NCBI GenBank assembly: GCA_000002445.1
Contig: CM000207.1
Location: 1,984,001-2,048,000 of the forward strand
From: Trypanosoma brucei
Lineage: Eukaryota
DNA length: 64,000 nt
Reading direction: 5' to 3'
This document shows, one piece after another, positions 45,810 through 51,523 of this stretch. The position numbers and the translations under genes are program-made. The first letter of the stretch is position 1. Each line of letters opens with the position of its first letter. The notes beneath the pieces were generated by a model, which saw nothing but the letters and a program-made list of their open reading frames with translations, was not told the DNA's origin and did no database searches.

Positions 45810-45954
45810 ATGTTGGTCGCTGAGCGGATGGCCCACCTGAAAGAAAGAGAGAGAAGGTGGGAAGGATAAATCAGAGAGGGAGTTTTCCTCGCTGCGCCTT
45901 TACCCTTCTAATATTGTTATTCTTGATCTATATCTATTTATAAAGATATATTGC

Positions 45955-45972
45955 ATATATATATATATATAT
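45955..45972. repeat. (AT)9 microsatellite in the 3' flank of the phosphatase gene.
   Basis: ttgcatatatatatatatatatattattgggg. Confidence 0.85.
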
Positions 45973-46299
45973 TATTGGGGGAAAGTGACACAATTTAACA
46001 CAAAGATTAGGTGTTATGTGTCGTTGTCTCATGGAAAAGTTGCTTCGCCTCACAGTTCATTAAAAAAAAGGATGGGATTGAAGTATCTTTCCACCAACAA
46101 GTATTTAATAATAAAAGAAAGAAAAGAGGGTGTAGATTACAAAACCCGGGTGTTGAGACGAACGTGGGTACGCCTGCCTGCGCATGAGTAAACTTGATTA
46201 TACCTTCGTACACTGAGAGTTTTTGCACATGACGCTTTGTAACTAATATTGTGTTGTCTCCTCTAGCTCTCCTTCCACTTGTTCTTTAGCATATTTCGT

Positions 46300-46800
46300 A
46301 TGTCGCTGGATCCGGTTTGTTCGATTTTACTTTGCGAGAGTTCGATGGGGGGCTGACGTCCGCTGGCAGGGAACGTAATTGTTGAACCTGAGGAATTTGC
46401 ATTCGGTGAAACTGTTGTTGGGCGGTCTTCGCTTTCAACTGCTGTATCTTTTGGTCTGGGCCCTTGAGTTGTTTTCGTTGTTGTAAGTTGTATGGGTCCG
46501 CCCTTCGTGGGGATTTTGCCCGCTGGGAGGTTCCACTACTCGGGTTGGAGGGCTGTGACTGATCTGTGGTCGATGTGATTCCTGTTTTGGTAGTGTGTTA
46601 AGCTGGAATCCCAGGTGAGCTAAATAGGCGTTTTTCCAGTTGGTCAATCCGGTTATAAAGTTGCTGGACTTGCTTTCGTATCGCCGCCGCTTTTTTCACG
46701 TTCCTGTTCCGCGTTACGGTGGCACTGTTCCACTCGTTGGGTTTCGCTGCTTCTGTGGATAAGGTATGCTGTTATGGCTACTGCCTATGTTACGCAAAAA
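46300..46800 (-). pseudogene. Frameshifted coding-like sequence (possible pseudogene fragment) at the strand-switch region.
   Basis: Minus-strand translations give protein-like segments in three different frames (for example ...YNRIDQLEKRLFSSPGIPA*, ...LNTLPKQESHRPQISHSPPTRVVEPPSGQNPHEGRTHTTYNNENNSRAQTKRYSS*). These are interrupted by stops and frameshifts, and no ATG-initiated ORF exists. Confidence 0.3.
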
Positions 46801-46811
46801 AAAAAAATAGC

Positions 46812-46995
46812 ACAAAAGGTGACACAGCGGGACCGGCTACAGCGACTGCCGTTTTGCGAACTATCTGTTACCTGTGATACGGCTATATAGATCCTGTGCC
46901 TTTAAGGGTAGTGGCCCGATTGGAGATTGAAAGCGTATCTTGCGAAGTGTTTTGGGGCCTCCAACAGTTATCCTCATCGAGGTGTTAATGCCCGA
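46812..46995 (-). mobile_element. Remnant of the 5' conserved signature (Pr77-like, about 79 bp) shared by trypanosomatid non-LTR retroposons (ingi/RIME/DIRE/L1Tc family), minus orientation. No intact element follows.
   Basis: The minus strand reads '...GAGGATAACTGTTGGAGGCCCCAAAACACTTCGCAAGATACGCTTTCAATCTCCAATCGGGCCACTACCC...'. This matches my recollection of the conserved retroposon 5' signature; the canonical leading CCCTGGC is absent or diverged. Location at a strand-switch region is typical. Confidence 0.5.
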
Positions 46996-47728: not shown

Positions 47729-47779
<51 letters not shown>

Positions 47780-47780
47780 T
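47729..47780. repeat. (GTT)n trinucleotide microsatellite, about 16-17 units.
   Basis: gcaattttgttgttgttg...gttgttgttttggggg. This creates an artefactual poly-Leu ORF (47666..47848). Confidence 0.9.
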
Positions 47781-48301
47781 GGGGGCCACTGAATGGAGTG
47801 AAACGGCGAGTGTGCGTTTTGTGGCTTCCGCTTCTGCACTGGTTATAAGCATGGTATCATTATAGATGCTGTCAGGGTCCCATTATTCACCATAAGCATG
47901 GAAGTCTTTCGGAGATTGGGCGTCACTCACTGTAGCAAACCATCTTTATGTACTTTTATCACTAATGATAGCCATATCAGGTGATTGTTGTGTGATCGGT
48001 TCCGGGTGGAGCGACTTTCGAGGATTGTTTGTCTTAACGATCTTCCATAAATCTTTAAGGGTCCGTCGCATCGAGTTGTTGAGGATATCATCTTAGTCAA
48101 TTTTGCGGTTTTGTCACCAGTGAGTCAAGCGTCTTCGTAGCGACTTGACTGTATATACGTAACGAAGCCAATTAACACCGAGTGTAGATGCCACTGAGCG
48201 GAATTTTGACCAGAGTTTTTCGAGTTCGATTACTTTTAGCGTCCTGGGGATAGATTCGTCCCCTGTTAGATGAGCTCGTGTTCTTGTTAAAGTTCTATCC
48301 C

Positions 48302-49621
48302 CTATGTGTACGGTATGTTTGTTTCTGTCCCATTTGATGCCGATATAGCCGTATTGTCATCTATACTCCGTTTCGCCATAGGTAACACGGGTTTCTCGGG
48401 CTCTCTTGTTTGTACATTTGTATACACATCCGCGGACTTTGTGGTAGGGGGCGTAATTCGTATGTCGTGGATCCACACGTCGATGATTTTTTGGACGTGG
48501 GGGAGTAGTTGCTCGTCCGTTCGTACGATACGCGGGTCCTCGGCTAGGACTAATAACAATAACTGCATAATTTCCAGTGATCCTACATAGCCGGTAGACA
48601 GCCTCGTGAATTCGTACGCTACTCCATCTTCATCAAAAAACCCAAAGTTTATCTGGGCGCGTGTTGATAATTCATCTTGGAAGGCCGCCGCCTCAAGGCC
48701 CATTGTAAGTGCTGGTGGTGCCCATACCCTAGATAGCAACTCCTGTTTAAAATATAGGCATAAGCTCGGACAATAACCATCTGCATATACTTCATCGTTA
48801 ATTGCTTGTGGCCATAATATCATTCGCCGTTGCCATTTTTTCGCTTCAACTCCATAACGGTATTTGGCCACGCATAGGCTATAATATAGTGTGGATCAAC
48901 CCTACCAATAATATGTGCGTCTTCCAGTTGCCGTGCATCCTCTCACCGAGGCTTGAATGCCGTCTCACATTCGATAATTATGGCATTGTCCTTGGGCATC
49001 CTTTACAGTGCGCTCCATCTTTTTTAAAAAAAAACAAGAGAAATATACACATCCGTTGTCGAAACCGAGGACACGTCCATACAATCAATTGGAAGACGTC
49101 TGCCCCTCTCCTTTTCTCTTGATTCGTCATGCTTCCGGGAGGGGGACCTATGGCTGGGCAAACCAGTTAGGAGACGGCAATCGGACGACAATATGTCATG
49201 ACATGTAATATCACGCAGATGCCAGGTCCGAGTAAATCCAGTCTATGCCGTTTCCAGTGCATGGGACGCCGTTTTGCACTTCCATCATTGTCTCGTCGAT
49301 TTGGTCCAGTCGTTCGGTGATGCGAGTTCGCCCGTTTCTAAGAGACATAAGCGGTTCTTTGAGGTTGGCGAGGCGGTTTTTGACACCCTGCAATTCCTCG
49401 CAGGATATCTTAATGCCTTTAATTTGGTTAATCGTATTGGCATCCAGACGGTTGATGGATTTAACTAACTCGTCCCAGTGTCCGTGTACGACCGTATTTA
49501 GAATCTCTGGACCGACCGAGTGAGTAAGAGAGTGAACCAGTTGAGAGGTCTCGCCGACTGTGATCGACGGTCGCTTTATTTGGGTACGGCGACTCTCACG
49601 AAAGCAATAAGAAAAGTGCAA
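48302..49621 (-). pseudogene. Two adjacent degenerate ORFs (189 aa and 136 aa) with non-ATG starts, resembling a retroelement pol fragment (RNase H/connection-like).
   Basis: The ORFs start with GTG and TTG respectively. ATG-only versions are 173 aa and about 45 aa. 'EVYADGY' and 'RIVRTDEQLL' are reminiscent of retroelement RNase H/connection motifs. They lie in the strand-switch region near the retroposon signature, and the minus-strand sequence downstream of them (48300 to 47900) is full of stops. Confidence 0.3.
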
Positions 49622-51523
49622 AACGCATATTCACATTCAACGGCTCGCGTTGGCCGGAAAATTCTGGAGGGAACGCAGTTTGTCAGCACGTAGTTAACGT
49701 GCGGGGGGCGGTGCTGTGCGAACTGTGCTTATGATGCTTTATAAAATGATATAAACCAGGCGAGATCTGCATTCATGAAGACCGTCTGTTTCCGGATCGT
49801 GGGGTAGCCGGCGTGTGTGGTGGATGGAACCCTGACCCGCGCGTGGGAAGGCGGTGCAACGCGACCAGATCAAGCAGCTTGCGGGCGTTGCTGACTAATA
49901 GTTGTTAAGAGGCAAACCTGTTGGTTTGGAGGACTTTGGGGCGCACCCGGGTGGAGATGTTTCAGATGCGGAAGGGTTGGAAGAGTTGGAAGGGAGATGC
50001 GAATCCATCATCTTACGCGAAGTGGGAGGCACGAAAAGGAAGCACGGCAACTGTAGCAAAAGCAACGTGAATGCCAGTGGTGTGTTTGCGTTGTTTCCGC
50101 GGCGCTGGAAAGAGTGCAAAGACCGGAAAAATAGAGTTGCGGTTCATGTAAAACCGTATGCGTGCAATGCCCGGTAGTGAAGCAGGATTTAAGAAAAAAA
50201 AAGAGAGATAAACATGCGGGGAGGAAGTTTACGAGTTCAACATGTGAAAGGTGTTTCGTAGCAGGGGCTCTGATAATGCACATCAACCTCGTGAATATGC
50301 ACGGCCCCGTGGCACCGCTAAAGGGACTACGAGCAGTGGAGGGAAAGTGGAGTTAGCCGTAGCCGCGCCGGTGTTGAAACCAAAATAAAAAAAAAGGATG
50401 ACATGGAGGTAACAGTTAAGGAAGGAGAGGATAGAGAGAACAGGGTGGGGTTGGAATAAAATGTTCCTAGTAAACTTTTGATGTTCACGGGGCACGTGGG
50501 ACTCCAAAGAGTAAGGAGAGGTGCGCACTTAAGGCACACACAAGAAAAATGCATACTGAATCCGATTGCGCGCTCCGAGGGGTTTCCTGACGCTTTTATA
50601 AGGAAGTGGAAAGTGTGAAGTGAAACCCACCAGTGCCCCATACTGCGGCTAAACGTAAGCGAGGCGAGTTGGTCTAAAAGGTTTAGTAGGAAGTACACAC
50701 GGCGATGGAAAGAAGGACGTTTACAACAAATTGAAGTTGGGCATCCAAGGATTGCTGAGCCACTTGCCCGAATGCACTGCCGTGGAGAAGCTGAAGATGA
50801 AGCATGAACTAATAGGCTTGACGAAGAAAGTGTCTGATGGGTTCTCTGCCTGTGCTCCCCAGCAGAGAAGGCCCAGACGAATAGAGAAAAAAAAACTCAG
50901 CGAAAAAGAAATTCAATCTAAAAAGAGAAGGGGGTTATCTTCTCACAGGGGGAATACCGACCATCGGAATTGCCACCTTTGGAGTTTTTTTTTGTTAAAA
51001 AAGGGATATAAATATTCTCTTATCTTTGAATGCAGCATTGCCTTTGAGAACTTGAAGAAAAAAAAAGTAGCGAAAGAGGTATTTCAGTTCTTTGCGAAAA
51101 CACAAGTATGTAAGAAAACTCAAGTGCGAAGAGGCCAGTGGTGACAAACACACATATGAAGACCATAAAATTAAGGCTCCTTGTCATCGTGTTCAAGTAC
51201 GGCAAAACAGTTGCTTGCTGATACGTTTACTATTTAAAAATAAAAACATTTTCTTTTTTGCAAAAATAACACAACTACTGCTAAGAAGGTAAACAAGCTG
51301 TTTTACGGGCGTGTCGTCCCTCTGCCGGCATTCCAAACCCTCAAACGAATATTTTGGTTAGAAGGAGCGAATACGCGGCGATGGGATGTATGTCTTTTGA
51401 AAATAAATAAAAAAAAATAAAGAAGTTAAGTGCACACTAGTGCTTTGGAAAAAAAAAAAAATAATAACAATAATAGTAAAAGGATCAGAAAATAGTCCTC
51501 ATTTACATATCCAACACGCACCG

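What the first reader, a model, noticed from the sequence alone, without database searches (positions are those of the whole stretch)
45810..51523. Oversized convergent strand-switch region filled with degenerate and mobile sequence
The coding strand flips here. Twenty-one plus-strand genes end at 45809, and minus-strand genes resume at about 51.5 kb (robustly from about 53.7 kb). The 6-8 kb in between contains no intact ATG-initiated gene. It holds a retroposon 5'-signature remnant, GTG/TTG-initiated pol-like pseudo-ORFs, frameshifted coding-like debris and a (GTT)16 microsatellite. Convergent strand-switch regions in trypanosomatids are Pol II termination zones marked by base J and H3.V/H4.V. 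One this large and this full of retroelement relics is a candidate site of past genome rearrangement, or a lineage-specific insertion hotspot.
Basis: partly seen in the sequence, partly recalled or inferred. Interest (0 to 1): 0.5.

Follow-up and report, generated by a model that had tools for sequence, protein, structure and literature searches.

The report
Remodelled trypanosome strand-switch region
This is the place on Trypanosoma brucei chromosome 9 where two opposing gene arrays meet; in this lineage it lost a conserved gene and gained about 8 kb of junk that holds a dead VIPER-type retroelement, a variable microsatellite and a glycine tRNA gene. It is a clear but ordinary example of a known pattern.

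Summary
Plus-strand genes end at 45809 with a NIF/FCP1-type phosphatase. The first minus-strand gene conserved in other species starts only at 53658. The (TTG)16 repeat is at 47729-47778.

The 'pol-like pseudo-ORFs' are real, but they are not ingi-type. 47527-49020 (-) is a frameshifted reverse transcriptase/RNase H relic of a VIPER-like tyrosine-recombinase retrotransposon. It includes the 173-aa ATG ORF that public genomes annotate as a hypothetical protein.

The claimed retroposon 5' signature (Pr77) is not there. A profile that finds Pr77 in T. theileri at E = 5e-9 finds nothing above chance in the window.

Synteny supports the 'rearrangement/insertion hotspot' reading:
- T. vivax, T. cruzi and L. 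major have an intact DHHC palmitoyltransferase gene facing the phosphatase gene, 0.75-1.3 kb away in the two trypanosomes.
- T. brucei has no trace of that gene and carries 7.85 kb of lineage-specific DNA instead.
- T. melophagium, T. theileri, T. rangeli and T. conorhini each carry different insertions at the same spot.

Pol II termination here is inferred, not tested. This is a known kind of region, of modest interest.

The parts
44958..45809 (+). Last gene of the plus-strand array: NIF/FCP1-homology (CTD-phosphatase-like) protein, 283 aa
   Evidence: Pfam NIF at E = 3.5e-30. Orthologues occur across trypanosomatids. Comparison with T. b. gambiense shows 4 synonymous and 0 non-synonymous differences.
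45810..47526 (.). Non-coding stretch with T>A skew like plus-strand intergenic DNA. Probably the 3' UTR or downstream region of the phosphatase gene (inferred). It holds an unexplained coding-like stretch at about 46255-46760 on the minus strand.
   Evidence: AT skew is -0.05 to -0.46 here, and all 19 plus-array intergenic regions are also negative. Only weak, non-collinear profile matches were found, with i-E 0.017-0.12. There is no Pfam domain.
47527..49020 (-). Degenerate reverse transcriptase / RNase H relic of a VIPER-like tyrosine-recombinase retrotransposon, broken by frameshifts and stop codons
   Evidence: phmmer against 1.84 billion representative proteins gave 92 hits. The hits carry RVT_1, RT_RNaseH or RVT_3 domains. 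The named hits are T. congolense, Angomonas 'TcC31.12' and Leptomonas. A profile built from 66 long hits matches 48850-48437 (E = 1.3e-38) and 48413-47763 (E = 3e-23), with weak collinear ends at 49020-48838 and 47604-47527. blastp against the RT alignment of Ribeiro et al. 2019 hits only the VIPER-like group, at 1e-17 to 1e-5.
48302..48823 (-). 173-aa ATG ORF (189 aa from the GTG at 48871) annotated as an 'uncharacterized protein' in T. equiperdum and T. b. gambiense. It is a fragment of the dead RT.
   Evidence: VIPER motif DLKASFFQ reads GLEAAAFQ here, and VWIDNIRIT reads VWIHDIRIT (compared with the alignment read). Comparison with gambiense shows 1 synonymous and 2 non-synonymous differences.
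47729..47778 (.). (TTG)16 microsatellite, (CAA)n on the relic's strand, lying inside the RNase H part of the relic. Its length varies between strains.
   Evidence: TRF reports 16.7 copies with 100% matches. There are 16 perfect repeats in the window and 6 in three other T. brucei-group assemblies, with identical flanks. The repeat lies between profile positions 779 and 816.
49211..49621 (-). 136-aa TTG-initiated ORF. Possibly a second small VIPER-like fragment from the region after the RT core. The evidence is weak.
   Evidence: It matches one family member, P0180 residues 187-280, at 27% identity. phmmer gives E = 1.2e-4 in a set of about 95 sequences, and blastp gives 7e-7 pairwise. The family profile does not detect it. 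Pfam gives only a sub-threshold coiled-coil hit.
49700..51523 (.). Non-coding stretch rich in A and G on the plus strand, so U-rich on the minus strand like minus-array intergenic DNA. Probably lies downstream of the 189-aa ORF on the minus strand (inferred).
   Evidence: AT skew is +0.16 to +0.29 from 50000 to 51499, and all minus-array intergenic regions are positive. There are several purine tracts on the + strand. No domains were found.
51524..52093 (-). 189-aa acidic ORF with hydrophobic N- and C-termini, like a signal peptide plus GPI signal. It is restricted to the T. brucei group and shows no sign of constraint.
   Evidence: The only homologue cluster is from the T. brucei group. There is no Pfam hit. 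Comparison with gambiense shows 2 synonymous and 4 non-synonymous differences.
52843..52913 (+). tRNA-Gly (anticodon GCC) gene with a TTTTT terminator 3 nt downstream. It is the published single-gene locus chr09-I.
   Evidence: ARAGORN. Rfam tRNA at 59.2 bits, E = 2.9e-10. The T-run is visible in the sequence. Padilla-Mejia et al. 2009, PMC2695483. The sequence is 97.5% identical to the tRNA-Gly at the same SSR in T. theileri, and a tRNA-Gly(GCC) is also present there in T. grayi.
53658..54011 (-). First conserved gene of the minus-strand array: a small protein of about 117 aa, orthologous to the T. vivax 109-aa, T. cruzi 119-aa and L. major 191-aa genes
   Evidence: tblastn E = 2e-35, 1.6e-40 and 5e-27 respectively.
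55539..56036 (-). Conserved minus-strand gene of 165 aa, the next syntenic marker
   Evidence: tblastn against the T. vivax, T. cruzi and L. major orthologues gives E = 1e-46 to 1e-34.
56445..58517 (-). NADPH-cytochrome P450 reductase, 690 aa, a syntenic anchor on the right side
   Evidence: Pfam Flavodoxin_1, FAD_binding_1 and NAD_binding_1. It is 60% identical to the T. vivax orthologue.

Best explanation
The interval is the convergent strand-switch region (SSR) on chromosome 9 of the Trypanosoma brucei group. Here a plus-strand polycistronic array ending in a NIF/FCP1-type phosphatase gene meets a minus-strand array.

The junction itself is ancient: in other trypanosomatids the phosphatase gene faces a DHHC palmitoyltransferase gene. 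In the T. brucei lineage the junction was remodelled. The DHHC gene was lost. About 7.85 kb of lineage-specific DNA (45810-53657) now separates the last and first conserved genes.

That DNA contains:
- a decayed, frameshifted RT/RNase H fragment of a VIPER-like tyrosine-recombinase retrotransposon at 47527-49020 on the minus strand;
- a strain-variable (TTG)n microsatellite that arose inside the fragment;
- possibly a second small fragment of the same kind;
- a lineage-specific 189-aa ORF with no sign of constraint;
- an intact tRNA-Gly(GCC) gene.

The anatomy, the homologies and the synteny are shown. Function is inferred. The region most likely acts as the zone where RNA polymerase II transcription of both arrays ends. 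The plus-strand transcripts probably run out between about 46 and 48.5 kb. The Pol III-transcribed tRNA gene at 52.9 kb is the likely boundary for the minus-strand array. The sequence between them would be low-level, overlapping read-through territory where dead mobile elements and orphan ORFs are tolerated.
For: Organism and locus: the phosphatase protein is encoded identically in T. b. gambiense chr 9, another T. brucei-group assembly and T. equiperdum. The window is 97.7-99.6% identical to them across the SSR.

Strand switch: ORF orientation. AT skew of non-coding DNA was calibrated on the window's own intergenic regions: 19 of 19 are negative in the plus array and all are positive in the minus array. 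Within the interval the skew flips between about 48.5 and 50.0 kb.

VIPER-like relic. Only VIPER-like RTs match. DIRS, PAT, Ngaro, Gypsy, Ty3, HBV, HIV and Bel RTs do not.

Decay: reading frames change, the DLKASFFQ motif reads GLEAAAFQ (its first D is G) and VWIDNIRIT reads VWIHDIRIT, and the substitution pattern looks neutral.

tRNA: and PMC2695483.

Synteny:
- T. vivax has phosphatase, a 750-bp gap, then DHHC, the 109-aa gene, the 200-aa gene and CPR.
- T. cruzi has a 1.3-kb gap.
- L. major has two extra plus-strand genes before DHHC.
- The T. brucei window has orthologues of the 109-aa, 200-aa, CPR and RRM genes but no DHHC, by tblastn and by HMM.
- Apart from the tRNA, nothing in 45810-53657 matches the other species.

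Background: 34.6% of T. brucei tRNA loci lie in convergent SSRs, and Pol II termination has been mapped to a tRNA region in L. major chr 3 (PMC2695483). Degenerate VIPER copies are known in T. brucei, with 58 RT/RH tblastn hits in TREU927 (PMC6681497, supplementary table 1).

Possible direct support: Tschudi et al. 2012 list a 6-kb convergent unit, CTU34, at 2,029,800-2,035,800 of chr 9, with DCL2-dependent small RNAs from both strands (97 and 81 reads). By a position estimate only, this probably is the present region.
Against: - No transcript, histone-variant or base J data could be examined, so the termination role and the exact convergence point are inferred. The AT-skew argument is confounded between 47.5 and 49 kb by the relic's own composition.
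- Only the RT/RH part of a VIPER-like element is recognisable. No tyrosine-recombinase relic and no terminal repeats were found, so the extent and the original insertion boundaries are unknown.
- T. congolense, the closest outgroup, could not be examined at this locus. The timing of the DHHC loss and of the insertion is therefore unresolved.
- The link to CTU34 rests on a position estimate and was not verified.
- About 1.7 kb (45.8-47.5 kb) and 1.8 kb (49.7-51.5 kb) remain without any homology.
Confidence: 0.75

Rival explanations
1. The ORFs in the interval are genuine T. brucei-specific protein-coding genes: the 173-aa ORF at 48302-48823, the 189-aa ORF at 51524-52093 and perhaps others. On this reading the minus-strand array simply extends to about 48.3 kb, and the real strand-switch gap is an unremarkable 2.5 kb or so.
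For: - Public annotations call these ORFs as genes in T. b. gambiense, T. equiperdum and another assembly.
- Both ORFs stay open in three or four strains.
- DNA from 50.0 to 51.5 kb has the skew of minus-strand transcribed sequence.
- The 189-aa ORF has a signal-peptide-like start and a GPI-signal-like end.
Against: - The 173-aa ORF is an internal piece of a VIPER-like RT. The first D of its DLKASFFQ motif is G and VWIDNIRIT reads VWIHDIRIT, and its homology continues out of frame on both sides.
- Substitutions against gambiense are 1 synonymous to 2 non-synonymous for the 173-aa ORF and 2 to 4 for the 189-aa ORF. The neighbouring phosphatase gene shows 4 to 0. The counts are small.
- Neither ORF has a homologue outside the T. 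brucei group other than retroelement RTs.
- No minus-strand pyrimidine tract of 14 nt or more lies upstream of the 189-aa ORF.
Confidence: 0.15
2. The interval is a graveyard of ingi/RIME/DIRE-type (L1Tc/ingi clade) non-LTR retroposons with a Pr77 5' signature.
For: - Such elements are reported to accumulate in trypanosomatid SSRs (PMC4748587).
- The orthologous region of T. theileri does carry a Pr77 hallmark.
- The orthologous region of T. melophagium carries an RT with a full Pfam RVT_1 match, probably of LINE type.
Against: - In the T. brucei window there is no Pr77 match above chance by blastn, pattern search or profile, although the profile works on a positive control.
- No RVT_1 or endonuclease domain appears in any of the six frames of 45810-51600 at E <= 1.
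- No SIDER similarity was found.
- The only RT homology is to the VIPER-like group.
Confidence: 0.05
3. The oversized gap is a specialised chromosomal element, either the chromosome 9 centromere or a replication origin zone, rather than just a termination region with junk.
For: T. brucei centromeres map to regions between gene arrays that contain degenerate retroelements (PMC1868937, abstract seen). Origins are reported at array boundaries (my own knowledge, not checked here).
Against: - There is no tandem repeat array apart from a 50-bp microsatellite.
- There are no internal repeats.
- GC content is an ordinary 35-55%.
- Known T. brucei centromeres carry long AT-rich repeat arrays (PMC1868937).
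- The region is only about 8 kb.
Confidence: 0.03

Closest known systems
Convergent strand-switch regions (Pol II transcription termination regions) of trypanosomatids, including those that contain tRNA genes, such as L. major chromosome 3
   Same: Two polycistronic arrays converge. A single tRNA gene sits between them. The region is gene-poor and holds lineage-specific sequence and a retroelement relic. It coincides with a break in synteny.
   Different: At 7.85 kb between conserved genes it is larger than the orthologous gap in T. vivax (0.75 kb) or T. cruzi (1.3 kb). The tRNA lies near the minus-array edge, not in the middle. Termination marks have not been examined here.
VIPER / VIPER-like tyrosine-recombinase retrotransposons of kinetoplastids (Vazquez 2000; Lorenzi 2006; Ribeiro et al. 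2019, PMC6681497)
   Same: The RT core aligns at 30-39% identity with VIPER-like RTs and with no other RT group, including the family-specific 'VWIDNIRIT' box. RNase H-like homology follows downstream. T. brucei is known to hold only degenerate copies.
   Different: Only about 1.5 kb of a roughly 4.5-5 kb element is recognisable. There is no tyrosine-recombinase or gag-like ORF and no terminal repeats. The RT motifs are mutated. This copy is not among the 15 T. brucei copies analysed by Ribeiro et al. (no chr 9 entry in their table).
ingi/RIME/DIRE/SIDER (L1Tc/ingi clade) retroposons with the Pr77 hallmark
   Same: They are the commonest retroelement relics in trypanosome SSRs.
   Different: No Pr77 hallmark, no LINE-type RT or endonuclease and no SIDER similarity is present in the T. 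brucei interval.
tRNA-Gly locus chr09-I of T. brucei (Padilla-Mejia et al. 2009, PMC2695483)
   Same: It is a single tRNA-Gly gene on chromosome 9 that overlaps an ORF annotated 'hypothetical protein, unlikely' (Tb09.211.4080). In the window, ORFs 52721-53101 (+) and 52636-52944 (-) overlap the tRNA.
   Different: Nothing differs. This appears to be that locus. The paper gives no coordinates, so the identity rests on it being the only tRNA-Gly locus reported on chr 9.

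Membership tests
Convergent strand-switch / Pol II termination region | Two arrays of genes on opposite strands point towards each other | tested here: met
   The + array ends at 45809, and conserved - genes start at 53658. The same convergence is present in T. vivax, T. cruzi and L. major.
Convergent strand-switch / Pol II termination region | Enrichment of H3.V, H4.V and base J | not testable with these tools
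Convergent strand-switch / Pol II termination region | Transcripts of both arrays end or overlap here | not testable with these tools
   Only indirect evidence exists: the strand-specific AT skew flips at 48.5-50 kb. A published convergent unit, CTU34 on chr 9, with small RNAs from both strands probably corresponds, but the mapping is unverified.
VIPER-like tyrosine-recombinase retrotransposon | RT homologous specifically to the VIPER/TATE group | tested here: met
   blastp at 1e-17 to 1e-5 hits six of the seven VIPER-like RTs (all but the Bodo saltans one). There is no hit to DIRS, PAT, Ngaro, Gypsy, Ty3, HBV, HIV or Bel RTs. The family profile gives E = 1.3e-38.
VIPER-like tyrosine-recombinase retrotransposon | RNase H domain downstream of the RT in the same ORF | tested here: inconclusive
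   Collinear homology continues for about 210 profile positions past the RT (48413-47763, E = 3e-23), plus a weak piece at 47604-47527. Homologues carry RT_RNaseH or RVT_3 in that region. No RNase H model hits the window sequence directly.
VIPER-like tyrosine-recombinase retrotransposon | Tyrosine recombinase ORF upstream of the RT | tested here: not met
   HMMs built from VIPER and TATE YR alignments give nothing better than E = 0.14 in six frames of 45700-53800. There is no Phage_integrase hit.
VIPER-like tyrosine-recombinase retrotransposon | Terminal (split direct) repeats | tested here: not met
   Self-comparison finds only low-complexity A/T runs.
VIPER-like tyrosine-recombinase retrotransposon | Intact catalytic motifs (an active element) | tested here: not met
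   DLKASFFQ reads GLEAAAFQ and VWIDNIRIT reads VWIHDIRIT. Frameshifts and stop codons interrupt the sequence.
L1Tc/ingi-clade retroposon (ingi, RIME, DIRE, SIDER) | Pr77 hallmark at the 5' end | tested here: not met
   Searches give chance-level matches only. The positive control in T. theileri gives E = 5e-9.
L1Tc/ingi-clade retroposon (ingi, RIME, DIRE, SIDER) | LINE-type RT or AP-endonuclease coding remnants | tested here: not met
   Six-frame Pfam scan of 45810-51600 finds no RVT_1 or Exo_endo_phos at E <= 1. No ingi protein sequence was available for a direct comparison.
tRNA gene (Pol III) | Cloverleaf with anticodon, scored above the family threshold | tested here: met
   ARAGORN reports tRNA-Gly(GCC). 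Rfam RF00005 gives 59.2 bits against a gathering score of 29.
tRNA gene (Pol III) | Run of T as terminator just downstream | tested here: met
   TTTTT begins 3 nt after the 3' end.
T. brucei centromere | Long arrays of AT-rich tandem repeats | tested here: not met
   The only tandem repeat is the 50-bp (TTG)n. GC content is 35-55%.

The most novel reading that the evidence does not exclude
The tRNA-Gly(GCC) gene may be an ancestral boundary element of this particular convergent junction, kept since the common ancestor of Trypanosoma. It sits just after the phosphatase gene in T. grayi and T. theileri, and at the other edge of the gap, inverted, in T. brucei. A VIPER-type element that encodes a recombinase may have caused the event that deleted the DHHC palmitoyltransferase gene and inverted the tRNA in the T. 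brucei lineage. The set of orthologous junctions ranges from 0.75 kb with no tRNA to 9 kb with a tRNA and transposable elements. That set would then be a natural series for asking what actually stops Pol II in trypanosomes.
Probability: 0.15. Interest if true: 0.45.

Novelty: new member of a known kind. Interest (0 to 1): 0.28.

Why it matters
The finding adds little in principle. Trypanosomatid synteny breaks at strand-switch regions are already known to collect retroelements, structural RNA genes and lineage-specific genes. The tRNA locus and the existence of degenerate VIPER copies in T. brucei are already published.

What it does add:
- A concrete, well-documented case. A gene conserved from Leishmania to T. 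vivax (a DHHC palmitoyltransferase) is gone from T. brucei exactly at a junction that was independently remodelled in at least five Trypanosoma lineages.
- A correction to annotation. The 'uncharacterized protein' genes in T. equiperdum and T. b. gambiense at this site are a dead reverse-transcriptase fragment.
- A compact comparative series of orthologous termination regions, with and without a tRNA and with and without transposable elements. This could be used with existing ChIP-seq and RNA-seq data.

Tried and rejected
- **Six-frame Pfam scan** of 45810-51600 (searches failed on stop codons). It found no RT or other transposable-element domain and, taken alone, would have wrongly dismissed the pol-like claim. 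Pfam RVT_1 is too distant from VIPER-like RTs; several true family members also score below threshold.
- **Word-indexed homologue search** with the 173-aa ORF. It found only the ORF's own T. brucei-group cluster. The exhaustive HMMER search was needed.
- **Pr77 and SIDER search** by blastn, IUPAC pattern and nhmmer profile. Nothing exceeded chance. One input sequence for the profile, a RIME 5' end, was written from memory. The other eight came from PMC4035085, supplementary file 1.
- **HDV-like ribozyme or other RNA families.** Rfam at E <= 5 over 45.5-56.5 kb found only the tRNA and chance-level snoRNA matches.
- **DHHC pseudogene remnant.** tblastn and an HMM built from three orthologues against six frames of 45700-53800 found nothing credible.
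- **Tyrosine-recombinase remnant.** None was found.
- **Terminal repeats or target-site duplications.** None was found.
- **T. congolense orthologous locus.** It is not in the contig collection.
- **Source genome and coordinates** through the 173-aa protein. Only the T. equiperdum contig was returned, so the link to the published convergent unit CTU34 stays an estimate.
- **Literature search** for the old gene identifiers Tb09.211.39xx-41xx. Nothing on the ORFs of this interval was found beyond the tRNA paper.
- **Centromere reading.** Rejected because there are no repeat arrays.

Full report
**Where this is.** The last plus-strand gene of the window (44958-45809) encodes a NIF/FCP1-homology phosphatase. 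Exactly this protein is encoded on chromosome 9 of T. brucei gambiense DAL972 (FN554972.1, near 1.74 Mb), in another T. brucei-group assembly and in T. equiperdum. The window is 97.7-99.6% identical to these across the whole interval. So it comes from a T. brucei-group chromosome 9, and the interval is fixed in the group rather than being a strain-specific insertion.

**Checking the observation.**
- ORF orientation confirms the switch. Every long ORF up to 45809 is on the + strand, apart from a few that only shadow a + gene on the opposite strand. From 51524 the long ORFs are on the - strand.
- The microsatellite is (TTG)16.7 at 47729-47778. It has 16 perfect units in the window but 6 in the three other assemblies, with identical flanks.
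Rfam scores it at 59.2 bits, and a TTTTT terminator lies 3 nt downstream. It is the single-gene locus chr09-I of Padilla-Mejia et al. 2009, which overlaps the 'hypothetical protein, unlikely' ORF Tb09.211.4080 (PMC2695483).

**The 'pol-like pseudo-ORFs'.** A six-frame Pfam scan of 45810-51600 found no reverse transcriptase, endonuclease or integrase. A word-indexed search with the 173-aa ATG ORF (48302-48823, -) found only its own T. brucei-group cluster, annotated 'uncharacterized protein'. An exhaustive HMMER search with the 189-aa GTG-initiated version gave a different answer.
- It found 92 relatives at E <= 0.001, with 30-40% identity over residues 9-148.
- Several relatives carry RVT_1 with RT_RNaseH or RVT_3 domains downstream.
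- The named relatives are T. congolense proteins, Angomonas deanei 'TcC31.12' and a Leptomonas pyrrhocoris protein.
- tblastn shows that the homology runs beyond the ORF into other frames.
- A profile of 66 long relatives matches 48850-48437 (E = 1.3e-38) and 48413-47763 (E = 3e-23). Weak collinear pieces lie at 49020-48838 and 47604-47527.
- I compared the ORF with the RT alignment published by Ribeiro et al. 2019 (PMC6681497, supplementary file 16). It hits only the VIPER-like group, at 1e-17 to 1e-5. It does not hit the DIRS, PAT, Ngaro, Gypsy, Ty3, hepadnavirus, retrovirus or Bel RTs.
- The family-specific box 'VWIDNIRIT' reads 'VWIHDIRIT' here, and 'DLKASFFQ' reads 'GLEAAAFQ'. Together with the frameshifts, this shows the fragment is dead.

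It belongs to a VIPER-like tyrosine-recombinase retrotransposon, not to an ingi-type retroposon. T. brucei is known to hold only degenerate VIPER copies, with 58 RT/RH hits in TREU927 (supplementary table 1 of that paper).

I could not find a tyrosine-recombinase remnant or terminal repeats. The microsatellite lies inside the RNase H part of the relic. The 136-aa ORF at 49211-49621 (-) weakly matches the post-RT region of one family member. It may be a second fragment, but the family profile does not support this.

**The 'retroposon 5' signature'.** I took Pr77-bearing sequences from the supplement of Sanchez-Luque et al. 2014 (PMC4035085) and searched the window by blastn, by a degenerate core pattern and by an nhmmer profile.
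- The best hit in the interval is 47870-47906 at E = 8.4.
- The pattern gave 8 matches against 10.9 expected by chance.
- The same profile finds a Pr77 hallmark in the orthologous T. theileri locus at E = 5e-9, so the method works.

**Synteny.** Orthologues of the phosphatase gave access to the same junction in other species. Minus-strand genes are listed in order outwards from the junction.

| Species | What follows the phosphatase gene |
|---|---|
| T. vivax | 750-bp gap, then DHHC palmitoyltransferase (-), a 109-aa gene, a 200-aa gene, cytochrome P450 reductase, an RRM protein |
| T. cruzi | 1.3-kb gap, then the same start of the series (DHHC, the 119-aa and 172-aa orthologues), followed by a GP63 gene instead of the reductase |
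| L. major | two extra plus-strand genes, then DHHC and the series |
| T. brucei (window) | no DHHC; 7.85 kb of lineage-specific DNA; then the 109-aa orthologue (53658-54011), the 200-aa orthologue (55539-56036), the reductase and the RRM protein |
| T. melophagium | about 8.8 kb before DHHC, including an RT with a full Pfam RVT_1 match (E = 7e-32), probably of LINE type |
| T. theileri | tRNA-Gly(GCC) 390 bp after the phosphatase gene on the opposite strand, no DHHC within 10 kb, a Pr77-bearing element |
| T. grayi | the same tRNA 277 bp after the phosphatase gene, then the contig ends |
| T. rangeli, T. conorhini | trans-sialidase genes |

Nothing in 45810-53657 of the window except the tRNA matches any of these species, by tblastx or by blastn. 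No VIPER-like RT is present at the junction in any of the other species.

The junction has therefore been remodelled repeatedly and independently. It also fits the general rule, from my own knowledge of the 2005 TriTryp comparison and not checked here, that synteny breaks coincide with retroelements, structural RNAs and gene-family expansions.

**Are the remaining ORFs genes?** The 189-aa acidic ORF at 51524-52093 looks like a small secreted or GPI-anchored protein. It has no relative outside the T. brucei group. Against gambiense it shows 2 synonymous and 4 non-synonymous differences. The RT fragment shows 1 and 2, and the neighbouring phosphatase gene shows 4 and 0. The counts are small, but they give no sign of constraint.

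**Where does transcription converge?** I calibrated AT skew of non-coding DNA on the window itself. All 19 intergenic regions of the plus array are T-rich on the + strand, and all those of the minus array are A-rich. Within the interval:
- 46.1-48.5 kb looks like plus-sense DNA;
- 48.5-50.0 kb is neutral;
- 50.0-51.5 kb looks like minus-sense DNA.

This suggests a convergence point near 48.5-50 kb, but the relic's own composition confounds it. Reported background points the same way: tRNA genes sit in a third of T. brucei convergent regions, and Pol II termination was mapped to a tRNA region in L. major (PMC2695483). That makes the tRNA at 52.9 kb the likeliest boundary for the minus array.

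Tschudi et al. 2012 list two convergent units on chromosome 9. One of them, CTU34 (2,029,800-2,035,800, 6 kb), yields DCL2-dependent small RNAs from both strands. By a position estimate it is probably this region, but I could not verify that.

**Verdict.** This is a real, correctly located convergent strand-switch region. It is enlarged in the T. brucei lineage by loss of a conserved gene and by accumulation of a dead VIPER-like element, a microsatellite, orphan ORFs and a tRNA gene. The kind of region is well known, so interest is modest. The centromere reading is rejected because there are no repeat arrays. The ingi-type reading is rejected by the tests above.

Noticed in passing
window 52843-52913; L010 11348-11418 (T. 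theileri); L016 8234-8304 (T. grayi): A tRNA-Gly(GCC) gene sits at the same phosphatase-gene junction in T. brucei, T. theileri and T. grayi. The T. theileri copy is 97.5% identical to the window's. In T. theileri and T. grayi it lies 280-390 bp after the phosphatase gene on the opposite strand. In T. brucei it lies 7 kb away on the same strand. It is absent within 10 kb in T. vivax, T. cruzi, T. melophagium, T. rangeli, T. conorhini and L. major.
   Followed up: partly
L014 10973-19000 (T. melophagium), especially 14551-15552 (+): The orthologous gap is about 8.8 kb and holds plus-strand ORFs of a retroelement with a strong Pfam RVT_1 match (E = 7e-32). This class differs from the VIPER-like relic in T. 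brucei. No Pr77 was detected there.
   Followed up: partly
L010 19423-19489 (-) and ORF 17735-19495 (-) (T. theileri): A clear Pr77 hallmark (E = 5e-9) is followed by a 586-aa ORF without Pfam domains, probably a degenerate ingi/L1Tc-type element, next to a GP63 gene. T. theileri also lacks the DHHC, 109-aa and 200-aa genes within 10 kb.
   Followed up: partly
L013 11618-14738 (T. rangeli); L015 11460-14103 (T. conorhini): In these two species, split trans-sialidase-like genes (BNR and TS_C domains) follow the phosphatase gene on the same strand. The junction has acquired surface-gene family members there.
   Followed up: no
window 48302-48823 (-); proteins P0001, P0125: Two annotation issues. 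The T. equiperdum 'uncharacterized protein TEOVI_000009200' and the matching T. b. gambiense gene call are a dead VIPER-like RT fragment. A Leptomonas pyrrhocoris relative of this RT (XP_015662839.1), which carries only a sub-threshold RVT_1 match, is named 'putative target of rapamycin (TOR) kinase 1'.
   Followed up: partly
window 47729-47778: The (TTG)n repeat has 16 units in the window but 6 in T. b. gambiense, GCA_003543875 and T. equiperdum. This could serve as a strain marker.
   Followed up: yes
window 46255-46760 (-): A Q/K-rich, coiled-coil-like, coding-looking stretch is broken by stops and frame changes. It gives only weak, non-collinear matches to the N-terminal part of the retroelement profile (i-E 0.017-0.12) and a sub-threshold Snapin/Pallidin hit. 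Its origin is unexplained.
   Followed up: partly
window 52094-52842: The DNA between the 189-aa ORF and the tRNA has long pyrimidine tracts on the + strand (52097-52117 and 52483-52504, the latter C-rich). Its skew is unlike minus-array intergenic DNA. That is odd if the 189-aa ORF is trans-spliced from the minus strand.
   Followed up: no
window 45810-53657 compared with L001 and L002: Identity to T. b. gambiense falls from about 99.0% in the coding array (40001-47752) to about 97.7% across the strand-switch region. An alignment break lies at 52598-52693.
   Followed up: no
window 45939-45977: A short (TA)n/AT-rich palindromic run lies just after the phosphatase gene's stop codon. Similar runs occur at 4444-4481 and 33906-33940 in other intergenic regions.
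   Followed up: no
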